DNA of 64,000 nt from Malacoraja senta (taxonomy: Eukaryota), in the NCBI GenBank assembly GCA_038087875.1, contig CM075990.1, positions 13,642,001-13,706,000 on the forward strand, read 5' to 3'. Below the pieces are notes generated by a model. It saw only the letters and a program-made list of their open reading frames with translations, searched no databases and had not been told where the DNA came from. Both the position numbers and the translations under genes were made by a program. Below, piece by piece: positions 3,455-63,170 of this stretch. The stretch's first letter is position 1. Each line of letters begins with the position of its first letter.

Positions 3455-3546
3455 ACACAAAAATGCTGGAGAAACTCAGCGGGTGCAGCAGCATTTATGG
3501 AGCGAAGGAAATAGGTAACGTTTCGGGCCGAAACCCTTCTTCAGAC
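3455..3546 (-). mobile_element. hammerhead-bearing short retroposed element (Penelope-like), ribozyme core intact
   Basis: 15-bp TSD cttgctctccagggt (3440-3454, 3547-3561). Minus strand reads aggt-CTGAAGA-A-GGGtttcggCCC-GAAA-CG-TT-acct. Confidence 0.85.
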
Positions 3547-3576
3547 CTTGCTCTCCAGGGTCTACCAAGTGTATTG

Positions 3577-4687
3577 TGTAGGAAAGAACTGCAGATGCTG
3601 GTTTAAATCAAAGGTAGAGATGTACTGGACGAGGCAATGCAGATAAAAGCGGAATCAGCAAACTTAATATCATATTTGTACAATATTATCTTAAATGCAC
3701 AAATACCATCTACGGAGGGTATCAGAAGAGACTGGGAACAAGAGTTAGCTATTAAAATTTCAAAGGAAAGTTGGAATGAATACTTATTAAAAGTGCATAA
3801 ATGCTCGATTAATGTAAGACACACTTTAATACAATTTAAAATTTTACATAGATTATATTATTCGAAAACTAAAATTCATAAAATTTTCCCAAACGTATCA
3901 TCTATTTGTGATAAATGTCAATCCCAAGAAGCAACTATAGCGCACTCATTTGTCTTCTGTACAAAAATTCAAAAATTTTGGAATGAAATTTTTGAAATCT
4001 TTACAAAGTTATTTAAAACAAGACTGATACCCAAAGCAGAATGGATTATCTTCGGAATAACGGAAGATGATCCAGAATTAAATGTGTTTCAAAAGAAATT
4101 AATGGATTATGGGTTAATAACTGGCAAAAAGCTAATTCTAAAATTTTGGAAGAAGGCTCCAATACCAACTATAAATATGTGGATTTCAAATATGTTTGAA
4201 ACATTACACCTTGAAGAGATAAGACTCCTCCTAGCAGGTAAACCAGATCACTTCCACCTGACGTGGTCTGCATTTATAGAATTATTACAAACATAGGGTG
4301 CAAAAGTACTTTAAAAAAAATAAAAAATTGAGGTCGGGTAAGGGGGGATGATAGTTGAAGAGTTGGTATGTCCTATTTACGTGATGCTCAAAAAAAAAAC
4401 ATTTGTTTCTCTCTTTTTCTCTTTCTCTTTTCTTTTCTTAGGGCCTATTTCTTAACTCTTTTTCTTTTTGTTTTTAATTTTGCTCTTATAGGGTCTTCGT
4501 CCTTTTTTGTTGTTACATTTTCTACACTTCTCTACACTTGCACTTTTTCCTTCACTTTCTTCTCTCTTTCAATCTTTTCTTTCTCTAGTGTAAAAAAAAA
4601 AATAAAGGGAGTACATTAATTGTAAGATGATATAAATGACGAGTATTAATGTATGTGGTTGTAATGTAATGTACTTCTAATAAATAA

Positions 4688-4718
<31 letters not shown>

Positions 4719-4935
4719 TCAAAGGTAGACGCAAAATGCTGGAGTAACTCAGCGGGACAGGCTGCATTTCTGGAGAGAAGGAATGGGTGTTGTTTTGGGT
4801 CGAGACCCTTCTTCAGACTGATGTCACAGTGTAACATGTCTGAAGAAGGGTCTCGACCCAAAACGCCACGCATTCCTTCTCTCCAGAGATGCTGCCTGTC
4901 CCGCTGAGTTACTCCAGCTTTTTGTGTCTACCTTC
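3577..4935. mobile_element. inverted-dimer hammerhead repeat interrupted by an L1 insertion
   Basis: Minus arm 3577-3618 resumes at 4730-4820. Plus arm about 4838-4935. Both cores carry GAAA>AAAA. Confidence 0.8.
3619..4715 (+). mobile_element. 5'-truncated L1-clade LINE (ORF2 C-terminus with CCHC zinc finger, 3' UTR, poly-A)
   Basis: Open frame 3637-4296 with KILHRLY and CDKC..EATIAHSFVFC motifs, AATAAA plus poly-A, 14-bp TSD aaatcaaaggtaga (3605-3618, 4716-4729). Confidence 0.92.
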
Positions 4936-61100: not shown

Positions 61101-61209
61101 CAATAGGCATTCTCTTTAATAACTTAAGTTGTTCCAAATTCTTTGGCATTGTTGTATGTTAGCTTGGCTAATCTCTTTAATTTATAGCTGTGTGTTTCCA
61201 CTGTGGTTG

Positions 61210-61408
61210 CCTGCAGTGGCTGTGGCTCACTGGGTAACCCCCCTGGTTCTGTCAGAGGCTGTGATTTCCAGTCCCACTCCAGAGGCCCATAGCACCAATA
61301 TCTAGACCGACCCTTCATTGCAGCACTGTCACAAGTGCCTTCTTTTGGTTGAATCTTGAAACCGAGGTCCCATCTGTTCTCCCAGTGGATGTTGCAGAAA
61401 TCCATGTC
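61210..61408 (+). mobile_element. ancient Deu-domain SINE remnant (SacSINE/AmnSINE-like)
   Basis: gcagcactgtc...gtgcc.tctttt...aaaccgaggtcccatctgttctc...gtggatgt resembles the Deu core as recalled. Confidence 0.55.
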
Positions 61409-63039
61409 ATTGAGTCTTGCAGCACGGAAACAGTCCCTTTGGCCCAACTTGCCCATGTCGACCAAGGTGCCCCATCCACACTAATCCCACCTGCTCACAT
61501 ATAGCCCATATCTATGTACCTGTCCAAATATATTTTAAATATTGTTGTGGCACTTGCCTTGACTACCTCGTCCGGCAGTGCTTTTCACGTACCAAATGTG
61601 TGAAAAATGTCAGTATGTTAAAGAAGAGCGGTGGGATTCACTGCGATGGCCTGGGCAATATTTATTACAAACTCAATATAACCTAAGAGAAGTAACGGGT
61701 TGTGCTAAGTGAAATAAGACAAGAAATACGTTTTCTCTCTATTGGAACTTGGGTGTCAAAACTGACTGCTATATTTCTTGTATAAAAATTGTCACTCAAT
61801 TGAAAGGAACTTCATTAACTGCAGAGTCTCTGGATGTCTTGAAAGGCAGTATATAAATATAGAGCCATCATGAGCAATCTAATGAAAGCTAATGCACATC
61901 ATCATAGATTAATTGTATTCAGGAAATAATATATATCACAAACAAATACAAGTCGGTCTTTACAAGCACAGTATAATCAAAAGAAAGGATGATTTGGAAA
62001 TTATTAATCACCTGATATTGAAAGGGTATATTGAACATAGGTTTTCTGGGAGACAATTACTGGGAAATTATATAAAATCGGCATTGTCTCCCAGAAATAC
62101 TATATTTTCCCCTGATTAAGCAGGGAAAGCTGAATACATTATATGATGAAAATGTTGTTTGTATATGTTATCGCATATGTTATCACTGTGATGAAAATTA
62201 ATTTGTAGATAGTCACTATGCATGGCCAGATATAATGACAGGACCCCATTATGTTTACCTTGCATGGTGGAAAATAATGGGTAATGTCTGGTTCATGCAG
62301 ACCCCCCAACCCCTCCTCACTCCAATGAGCCCTTTCTTGAATCCCTCATCACCTCTCCCAATACGTTCCTCTTCAATCTCCCTATTCTAAACTCTTTGAT
62401 AGCTGCCCCTCTCCCTTTTCCAACGGCTTAATTCACACTCTGACTAATAATCCAGGCAGATGTCCCAACCATAGATAATAATGATAAAGGCTAACATGGC
62501 TACACTCATTGTCTTCAAATCTCGCACCCTCTCCATTTCAGACACACCCCAAGCAAGTACAAGATTCTATTATCAACATCCTTTTTTAATTTAAGAAAGG
62601 CATTTTTCCCACAAAATGTCCCCTTTTCCCTCTGTGGTCAACATTGATGAAGGCAGTCTCCAATAATGATAGTTTGGAGAACAATAGTGAGTGAGTTGGT
62701 CTGCATTGAGTCAGATTTAAAAACATTTTCATTGCCTATTCAGTCAGCTAATGAGTGCTATTGTTGCATAATTAATTGTGGAGATGCCCGACTCGAGCCC
62801 CACCCATTATCGCTCTTTAATATTGGGAGAGGGATAATGTTTTGAAGCCATCTTATGTTGAGGAACAGGCAGAATGTTATTAGATCTGATCATTGTGCAT
62901 ACCAGCCATAATCTAATCTAATTGTGGAACAGCCCAGAGGGGATGCATGGCCTCTTGTGTCTCAGTGTGGTTAAAGTAATATTGCTATGAGGAGTTCAAC
63001 CTGTGCACCTCGGACAACGTAACCGTGGCAGTTACTTGT

Positions 63040-63170
63040 GTAGCAATGAACTGGGGATGCTGGTTTAAACCAAAGACAGGCACAAAAGGCTGGAGTAGCT
63101 TCAGTGGATCAGGCAGCATCTCTGGAGAAAAGGAATAGGTGACGTTTTGGGTCGAGACCTTTCTTCAGAC
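63040..63170 (-). mobile_element. hammerhead-family repeat, one unit
   Basis: Matches the consensus, GAAA>AAAA. Confidence 0.8.

What the first reader, a model, noticed from the sequence alone, without database searches (positions are those of the whole stretch)
3455..63170. High-copy non-coding retro-element family headed by a minimal hammerhead ribozyme
Seen: roughly 30 copies (counted by eye) of a ~130-nt unit, gtCTGAAGAaGGGTCtcGACCCGAAAcgTCacccattccttctctccagagatgctgcctgtcccgctgagttactccagc...ccagcatctgcagttcc. The head fits a type I hammerhead: C3-A9 core, one extra A, stem II with variable loop (GGGTCtcGACCC vs GGGtttcggCCC), GAAA, a helix III reduced to palindromic ACGU, and a GUC/GUU site. 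At least three subfamilies occur, with no ORF, no pol III boxes and no poly-A. Established: minimal, dimer-dependent hammerheads occur in the terminal repeats of Penelope-like elements and in retrozymes. Inference: this is a Penelope-mobilised, ribozyme-bearing short element (or solo terminal repeats) at very high density in this lineage.
Basis: partly seen in the sequence, partly recalled or inferred. Interest (0 to 1): 0.8.

Follow-up and report, generated by a model that had tools for sequence, protein, structure and literature searches.

The report
Penelope-type short repeat with hammerhead
A 134-base non-coding repeat that begins with a minimal hammerhead (self-cutting RNA) motif fills about 6% of this stretch of animal DNA and shows the insertion pattern of Penelope-like jumping genes, so it is likely a short passenger copied by their enzymes, a known pairing seen here at very high density and mostly as broken copies.

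Summary
The repeat is real. It occurs as 49 fragments in 33 groups (about 6% of the window), has a 134-nt unit and at least three subfamilies, and lays on 15,000–190,000 contigs in each of four runs from four organisms. Its head is a minimal type I hammerhead, but only 2 copies pass a strict descriptor, the core decays like neutral DNA, and covariation is not significant. There are two 3' ends about 36 nt apart (the optional PLE 'tail'). There are 13 head-to-head inverted pairs (1.3 expected), 12 of them with exactly one tailed arm. Target-site duplications are 10–16 bp. 5' ends pile up 2 nt before the ribozyme core rather than at its cut site, so uncut RNA with a fixed 5' end is the likely template. 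One copy keeps a longer pyrimidine-rich 5' extension, also seen in an independent contig. No RT or GIY-YIG ORF could be tied to the unit, and cleavage and expression are untested. Verdict: new member of a known kind (PLE terminal-repeat derivatives carrying minimal hammerheads), notable for density and for its record of PLE integration.

The parts
1853..2081 (+). Pyrimidine-rich 5' extension of the long subfamily-C copy (likely rest of a parent element's 3' UTR/terminal repeat)
   Evidence: P0003, an ORF called on an independent Logan contig, matches 1949-2059 (70% aa identity, E 6e-9) and runs on into the translated hammerhead head
2082..2483 (.). Unrelated insertion with terminal inverted repeats and TTAA/TTTA ends that splits the long copy
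2484..2643 (+). Long subfamily-C copy: last 21 nt of extension, decayed hammerhead head at 2505, body and tail
3452..3546 (-). Subfamily B solo, unit 1-95, intact hammerhead core, 15-bp duplication flush with position 1
3575..4935 (.). Head-to-head pair: tailed arm 4716-4818(-) whose tail lies at 3575-3618, split by an L1-like insert; tail-less arm 4838-4935(+)
8768..8887 (.). Head-to-head pair: tail-less arm (unit 20-99, -) joined to a tail-only arm (94-133, +); 15-bp duplication
14780..14912 (+). Subfamily B full tailed solo; 11-bp duplication flush with position 1
16340..16509 (.). Subfamily B head-to-head pair; both arms begin at the predicted cleavage site (unit 31/32); 14-bp duplication
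17281..17414 (-). Subfamily A full tailed solo
19065..19149 (+). Subfamily A tail-less solo, intact hammerhead core, 12-bp duplication overlapping positions 1-2
20631..20718 (-). 5'-truncated subfamily B solo
23614..23705 (+). 5'-truncated tail-less A solo
27957..28236 (.). Head-to-head pair with both arms tailed (the one exception); 28103-28236 is the numbering reference, unit 1-134
33342..33479 (.). Older head-to-head pair, one arm tailed
34037..34527 (.). Probable 14th head-to-head pair, minus arm split by an insertion (by eye)
35872..35962 (+). Old diverged copy with an A-U pair in place of G-C at the base of helix II
36068..36279 (.). Head-to-head pair (18-134 -, 1-98 +) joined by 3-nt microhomology; 16-bp duplication
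42430..42518 (.). Older head-to-head pair, one arm tailed
48062..48250 (.). Head-to-head pair (9-98 -, 44-134 +); 15-bp duplication
51649..51728 (-). 5'-truncated tail-less A solo
52912..53085 (.). Subfamily B head-to-head pair; 11-bp duplication
53468..53561 (-). Diverged solo with head
53775..53936 (.). Head-to-head pair; 12-bp duplication with one mismatch
54523..54710 (.). Head-to-head pair (1-98 -, 53-132 +); 14-bp duplication
54755..54976 (.). Diverged head-to-head pair with 50-nt spacer
55156..55250 (-). Tail-less A solo (cleavage triplet mutated)
56820..57044 (.). Head-to-head pair (1-134 -, 48-93 +) with 43-nt spacer; 15-bp duplication
57358..57404 (-). Old fragment; 10-bp duplication
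60025..60226 (.). Two copies tail-to-tail
63037..63170 (-). Full tailed solo

Best explanation
This is a 134-nt non-coding repeat, headed by a minimal hammerhead motif, that likely derives from the 3' terminal repeat of a Penelope-like element and is likely copied in trans by that element's reverse transcriptase and endonuclease. Shown in the sequence: two 3' ends about 36 nt apart, head-to-head pairs with one tailed and one tail-less arm, 10-16-bp target duplications, a fixed 5' end 2 nt before the ribozyme core, and a longer 5'-extended form. Inferred steps: (1) the endonuclease nicks both target strands 10-16 nt apart. (2) Each nick primes reverse transcription at one of two internal start sites (unit ~98 or ~134). 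(3) If one cDNA completes the event, a solo copy results; if both extend, they join head-to-head through short microhomology or a spacer. (4) The template is mostly uncut RNA whose 5' end lies at unit position 0/1, most likely a short transcript, because copies end there rather than at the cut site. (5) In a monomer the hammerhead is predicted to be folded off by an alternative helix and would cut only as a dimer or with protein help. Most genomic copies are mutated and would not cut.
For: Tail: young copies end near unit 91-103 or 125-134. [quoted passage not shown] Inverted pairs: 13 vs a mean of 1.3 and a maximum of 7 in 5,000 random placements; exactly one tailed arm in 12 of 13, p about 0.002. 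The same layout, with 8-10-bp duplications and captured spacers, is described for rotifer PLEs (PMC3846280, passages). Duplications of 9 bp or more at 9 of 33 groups vs 1% of 600 random placements, plus 3 checked by hand. The motif has the minimal-hammerhead traits: extra base after A9, G-C at the base of helix II, palindromic helix III (PMC4209133, parts 1-2). 5' end: 18 of 49 fragments reach unit 1-3; duplications abut or overlap position 1 at 3546, 14780 and 19065; the flanks share nothing except partner arms. Position 1 is the largest class of 5' loose ends in 4 of 4 runs (2,296, 2,961, 490, 267 contigs; agreement 0.34-0.40). The alternative helix has pairing probability 0.94 and 0.91, vs 0.001 and 0.003 for helix II, in the two intact copies. 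Ribozyme mutants still insert in vitro (PMC11167929).
Against: No RT or GIY-YIG domain was found next to any copy: 286 of the 300 longest ORFs were scanned and gave only LINE-type domains and one low-complexity hit. Protein searches with translations of the extension and the unit reached no PLE protein. No genome is held. Covariation is not above shuffles, and the core is not protected in dispersed copies. Helix I is only 2 bp. The source of the fixed 5' end is not shown. In one search any copy that runs further upstream also counts as a loose end at position 1, and counts for X1 and X5 are incomplete. One pair begins at the predicted cut site (16340/16446), so cut RNA may sometimes be the template.
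Confidence: 0.8

Rival explanations
1. All copies are 5'-truncated ends of full-length PLEs (solo terminal repeats), with a strong truncation hot spot where the pyrimidine tract meets the hammerhead head (an RT stop, endonuclease cut or splice acceptor). There is no self-standing short element.
For: A 5'-extended copy exists (1853-2643) and recurs in an independent contig. Loose-end consensuses in 4 of 4 runs show a faint pyrimidine run ending in TCA. In D. virilis Penelope the intron ends at helix I (PMC4209133). Single min-hammerheads are read as truncated PLEs in the same paper.
Against: Only 1 of 18 head-bearing copies has a demonstrable shared extension (two more have 27-43-nt pyrimidine-rich spacers). 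Tailed and tail-less copies both stop at the same base, and random truncation would scatter the ends.
Confidence: 0.25
2. Retrozyme-type cycle: rare head-to-tail arrays are cut by hammerhead dimers and ligated into circles of about 134 nt, and one round of reverse transcription from the tail ends at position 1, giving dispersed monomers.
For: Head-to-tail joints from unit 124-134 back to position 1 occur in contigs (12-59 contigs per listed joint in X1 and X5). Dispersed monomers plus tandem sources are described for vertebrate retrozymes, including one chondrichthyan (bioRxiv 10.64898/2026.07.22.740005, parts 1-3).
Against: 0 of 33 groups in the window are head-to-tail. Tail-less copies also stop at position 1, whereas a circle would let them run on into the tail, and none of 18 heads is preceded by tail sequence. 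The hammerhead is minimal rather than canonical, with a 2-bp helix I. Template jumping explains tandem joints equally well.
Confidence: 0.15
3. A SINE- or MITE-type repeat moved by LINE or transposase machinery; the hammerhead look is incidental.
For: LINEs are present in the window, and 10-16-bp duplications also fit LINE-mediated insertion (own knowledge). Rfam gives no hammerhead hit.
Against: No pol III A box and no poly-A. The inverted arms are unequal, head-to-head and often absent, unlike terminal inverted repeats. The strict motif with palindrome occurs 0.017 times per 64 kb by chance.
Confidence: 0.07

Closest known systems
Minimal type I hammerheads in pseudo-LTRs of metazoan Penelope-like elements (Cervera & de la Pena 2014, PMC4209133; parts 1-2 of 4 read)
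   Same: C3-A9 core, extra base after A9, G-C at the base of helix II, palindromic helix III with no loop; mostly single dispersed motifs, some in opposite-strand pairs; present in fish, coelacanth and frog.
   Different: Helix II is 4 bp and helix I 2 bp (schistosome motifs have 7-8 and 4-5; D. virilis has a 2-bp helix I). Density is 18 heads in 64 kb, against about 4,000 and 9,000 motifs per genome reported for coelacanth and Xenopus. No ORF link is shown here.
EN+ PLE insertions (Craig 2021 PMC8557442, passages; Arkhipova 2013 PMC3846280, passages; Frangieh 2024 PMC11167929, parts 1-2 of 4)
   Same: Optional 30-40-bp tail at one end, inverted 5'-truncated copy at the 5' end, short target duplications, spacers captured between terminal repeats.
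   Different: No ORF, a unit of only 134 nt, and a fixed rather than scattered 5' end.
Non-LTR retrozymes of animals (Cervera & de la Pena 2020 PMC7229834, passages; Li, Clavereau & Pollet 2026 bioRxiv 10.64898/2026.07.22.740005, parts 1-3 of 5)
   Same: Non-coding, type I hammerhead, proposed PLE dependence, duplications longer than 4 bp, dispersed monomers, and some tandem joints in contigs.
   Different: Minimal rather than canonical hammerhead, a unit below the 150-450-bp range of the 2020 paper, no tandem in the window, dominant head-to-head pairs, and no circular RNA shown.

Membership tests
Minimal type I hammerhead (PLE type) | CUGAnGA core and GAAA | tested here: met
   CUGAnGA exact in 16 of 19 heads; the whole strict motif in 2 copies vs 0.1 by chance; 6 of 19 have G12 to A
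Minimal type I hammerhead (PLE type) | Extra base after A9 and G-C pair at the base of helix II | tested here: met
   A in 19 of 19; G-C 12, G-U 2, A-U 1, unpaired 3 of 18
Minimal type I hammerhead (PLE type) | Palindromic helix III and NUH site | tested here: met
   Central pair C-G 12 and U-G 2 of 18; A-U 13 of 18
Minimal type I hammerhead (PLE type) | Helix I | tested here: inconclusive
   Only 2 bp, 81% of cells paired; the upstream strand is flank in most copies
Minimal type I hammerhead (PLE type) | Covariation across families | tested here: inconclusive
   Score 0.186, reached by 49 of 500 shuffles; one two-sided change in helix II, from one old copy
Minimal type I hammerhead (PLE type) | Self-cleavage as a dimer | not testable with these tools
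   Bench test needed; monomer predicted folded off
Penelope-like element derivative | Optional 30-40-bp 3' tail | tested here: met
   Ends near 98 and 134; one tailed arm in 12 of 13 pairs
Penelope-like element derivative | Inverted 5'-truncated copy at the 5' end | tested here: met
   13 pairs vs 1.3 expected; opposite-strand joints in contigs
Penelope-like element derivative | Short target-site duplication | tested here: met
   9 of 33 groups vs 1% control, plus 3 by hand
Autonomous Penelope-like element | ORF with telomerase-like RT and GIY-YIG endonuclease beside the repeat | tested here: not met
   None in 286 window ORFs; the genome-wide test could not be run. Not filed as an autonomous PLE
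Non-LTR retrozyme | Head-to-tail tandem units, each with a hammerhead | tested here: inconclusive
   0 of 33 groups in the window; tandem joints present in contigs
Non-LTR retrozyme | Canonical hammerhead with full helix I and loop-loop contacts | tested here: not met
   2-bp helix I, no loop 3. Not filed as a canonical retrozyme
Non-LTR retrozyme | Circular RNA | not testable with these tools
   Only contigs were offered; no RNA holder on record
tRNA-derived SINE | Pol III A and B boxes; A-rich or simple-repeat 3' end | tested here: not met
   No sense-strand A box in 4 of 4 copies (box consensus recalled); no poly-A

The most novel reading that the evidence does not exclude
Subfamilies A and B are a self-standing 134-nt RNA parasite of Penelope-like elements: a SINE equivalent without a pol III promoter, with its own fixed 5' end and a switched-off hammerhead, present in 10^5 to 10^6 copies per genome (extrapolated from one window). 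Its one-tailed head-to-head pairs record a PLE enzyme priming both nicked target strands at two different RNA sites in one event, which makes the unresolved PLE integration mechanism countable genome-wide.
Probability: 0.35. Interest if true: 0.6.

Novelty: new member of a known kind. Interest (0 to 1): 0.33.

Why it matters
The hammerhead-Penelope link is known, so the class is not new. Three things add value. First, density: 33 groups and 2 intact hammerhead cores in 64 kb would, if typical, put this among the richest hammerhead sources in vertebrates. Second, the 134-nt unit appears to hold everything the PLE enzyme needs, which makes it a minimal template for in vitro work. Third, the one-tailed inverted pairs and the fixed 5' end bear on how PLEs integrate and whether the ribozyme cuts before insertion, both still open in PMC11167929 and PMC8557442. 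I did not find this family described. A search for two 20-nt motifs and an RNA-letter form gave 0 papers. None of the 15 papers listed for cartilaginous-fish terms held 'hammerhead ribozyme', and no cartilaginous-fish name or motif was found in 2 of 3 supplement files of PMC4209133. Repbase, Dfam, Lunse 2017 (not held) and the closed supplements of the 2026 preprint, which covers one chondrichthyan, were not seen and may well hold it.

Tried and rejected
No genome is held, so adjacency to an ORF could not be tested. Pattern scans found nothing in metagenome contigs, prokaryote genomes or viral contigs. Rfam has no hammerhead hit; its miRNA hits at 16374-16509, 28054-28139 and 53826-53905 are the inverted pairs and were rejected. 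Protein searches for a parent ORF: 21, 12 and 7 candidates gave no informative hit. Of 5 representative hits, 4 (P0001, P0002, P0004, P0005) matched through several short stretches, carry no PLE domain and were dropped; P0003 was kept. The Atlas search was blank. Expression: no RNA holder listed, and contigs cannot show RNA ends, so this is no evidence either way. 'Both cDNAs come from one RNA molecule': the tail-less arm reaches further 5' in 8 of 12 one-tailed pairs, the tailed arm in 1, with 3 ties, and a 14th pair adds a second contrary case. Arm lengths are similar, so equal processivity explains this and I do not claim it. Promoter motifs: the extended form has an initiator-like TCA|GT at position 0/1 (consensus recalled) and a purine precedes position 1 in 15 of 18 heads. 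The ACGT in helix III is 3 nt off the spacing expected for the Drosophila downstream element named in PMC2377424 (passages; spacing recalled). This is a lead only. Energy evaluation of forced dimer and 5-bp helix II structures failed as invalid structures and is not used. The 8-bp repeat at 34454 is part of an inverted arm, not a duplication. Earlier-findings look-ups by sequence and place were blank. The host is taken to be a skate or ray from its repeat content; this is recalled and shown by no call.
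Full report
Observation. The repeat is present as described. Three window copies used as blastn queries recover 43 fragments covering 3,828 bp, 6.0% of the window. A profile built from 20 copies finds 47 hits and none in the reversed window. Merged, these are 49 fragments in 33 groups. I number the unit on copy 28103-28236 (1-134). 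Laid on that copy at 80% identity, 169,226, 189,733, 19,038 and 15,462 contigs match in four runs from four coded organisms. These are contig counts, not copy numbers, but they show a genome-wide family shared between species. That the host is a skate or ray is my recollection from its repeat content, not a tool result.

The hammerhead. The head reads G1-U2, CUGAnGA (3-9), an extra A (10), helix II (11-14 with 19-22, 4-nt loop), GAAA (23-26), the palindrome ACGU (26-29), cut after position 30, and then a 2-bp helix I. This is the minimal PLE-type motif of PMC4209133 (parts 1-2 read). CUGAnGA is exact in 16 of 19 heads and the extra A is in all 19. A strict descriptor passes only 2 copies, against 0.1 per 64 kb in 60 controls. 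The catalytic G at position 23 lies in a CpG and is changed in 5 of 13 aligned A copies. Non-CpG changes are 6/116 in the core and 51/1056 elsewhere, so dispersed copies decay neutrally. On 18 heads the named structure is 84.7% paired, far above slid controls (12-48%), but covariation is reached by 49 of 500 shuffles. In both intact copies an alternative helix (about 5-14 with 31-42) is predicted to displace helix II (pairing probability 0.94 and 0.91 vs 0.001 and 0.003). Rfam does not detect the motif. The motif is therefore real and non-random, but activity is unshown and most copies are mutated.

Insertion anatomy, the main new evidence. (a) 3' ends fall near unit 91-103 or 125-134. PLE insertions carry an optional 30-40-bp tail, often at one end only (PMC8557442, passages), and for the anole element the tail lies between two internal RT start sites, with both target strands cut and extended (PMC11167929, parts 1-2). 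(b) Thirteen head-to-head pairs occur, where random placement gives 1.3 on average and at most 7 in 5,000 trials. In 12 of 13 exactly one arm has the tail (p about 0.002). A probable 14th pair, found by eye, follows the same rule. (c) Direct repeats of 9 bp or more flank 9 of 33 groups, vs 1% of 600 random placements. Three more were checked by hand, for lengths of 10-16 bp. Rotifer PLEs show the same layout of inverted repeats, one tail, 8-10-bp duplications and captured spacers (PMC3846280, passages). Junctions between arms range from 2-3 nt of overlap to spacers of up to 50 nt. Opposite-strand joints and head-to-tail joints back to position 1 also appear in contigs, although the window has no head-to-tail pair.

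The fixed 5' end. Eighteen of 49 fragments reach unit 1-3. At 3546, 14780 and 19065 the duplication abuts or overlaps position 1. The 40-nt upstream flanks resemble each other only where a partner arm lies there. Position 1 is the largest class of 5' loose ends in all four runs, with low agreement (0.34-0.40) but a faint pyrimidine-then-TCA consensus (X1 and X5 counts incomplete, and any longer copy also counts there). A linear ribozyme product would begin at position 31, and only the pair 16340/16446 does. So uncut RNA is the likely template, as in the anole system where ribozyme mutants still insert. What fixes position 0/1 is not shown. I favour a short transcript: PLE terminal repeats hold internal promoters (PMC2377424, passages), and a purine precedes position 1 in 15 of 18 heads. 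A truncation hot spot and a one-round circle remain as rivals.

The longer form. Copy 2505-2643 is preceded by a pyrimidine-rich tract from about 1853, split by a TTAA-ended insertion. A search of 1.84 billion representatives with its translation returned P0003, an ORF on a 1.1-kb Logan contig. It matches 1949-2059 at 70% and ends in the translated subfamily-C head. The tract therefore belongs to a longer element, likely a parent's 3' UTR. I could not follow it to an ORF. Pfam on 286 of the 300 longest ORFs gave only LINE-type domains and one low-complexity hit, three homology searches and the Atlas gave nothing, and no genome is held.

Comparison and verdict. It works like the terminal repeat of an endonuclease-bearing PLE and meets the three architectural tests. 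It fails the ORF test, so it is filed as a non-autonomous derivative rather than an autonomous PLE. It differs from canonical non-LTR retrozymes in its minimal ribozyme and in being dispersed rather than tandem (PMC7229834, passages), although the 2026 preprint (parts 1-3 read; supplements closed) already reports PLE-derived hammerhead repeats with dispersed monomers across vertebrates, including one chondrichthyan. It is not a pol III SINE. Searches for this family in print were blank, but repeat databases and Lunse 2017 were not seen; that paper is known to me only through the review PMC6765202 (passages). New member of a known kind, interest 0.33.

Noticed in passing
window 776-929 (-), direct repeats at 763-775 and 928-940: A 152-nt insert between 13-bp direct repeats, inside a SINE-like repeat, starts with an HDV-type ribozyme fold whose P3/L3 is identical to the mammalian CPEB3 ribozyme model (Rfam RF00622, 24 bits, below the cut-off of 35; E 3.4e-4 in a 401-nt scan, 0.054 window-wide). 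P2 pairs 5 of 5 with changed bases, P1 5 of 6, P4 is minimal. Single copy in the window. It looks like a retroposed RNA whose 5' end was made by ribozyme cleavage; a CPEB3-like core in a probable cartilaginous fish deserves its own look.
   Followed up: partly
window 37183-39829 (+): Young LINE with an endonuclease ORF (Exo_endo_phos_2) and a 603-aa RT ORF (RVT_1) in different frames.
   Followed up: no
window 3607-4729: 5'-truncated L1-like copy (zf-RVT, poly-A, 12-bp duplication) inserted into the unit's 3' end at the tail boundary, so the repeat is older than this insertion.
   Followed up: partly
window 2082-2483: About 400-nt element with terminal inverted repeats and TTAA/TTTA ends, probably a non-autonomous DNA transposon.
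   Followed up: no
window 53000-56200: GC- and CpG-rich stretch (GC 0.47 in 52001-56000) holding several repeat copies, with a splice-donor-like site near 55752 on the + strand; possibly a promoter and first exon.
   Followed up: no
window 17756-18260: GC-rich repeat with near-identical copies 89 nt apart.
   Followed up: no
window 57700-58100 and 40050-40190: (TA)n/(TG)n microsatellites; they cause the top miRNA-family Rfam hits.
   Followed up: no
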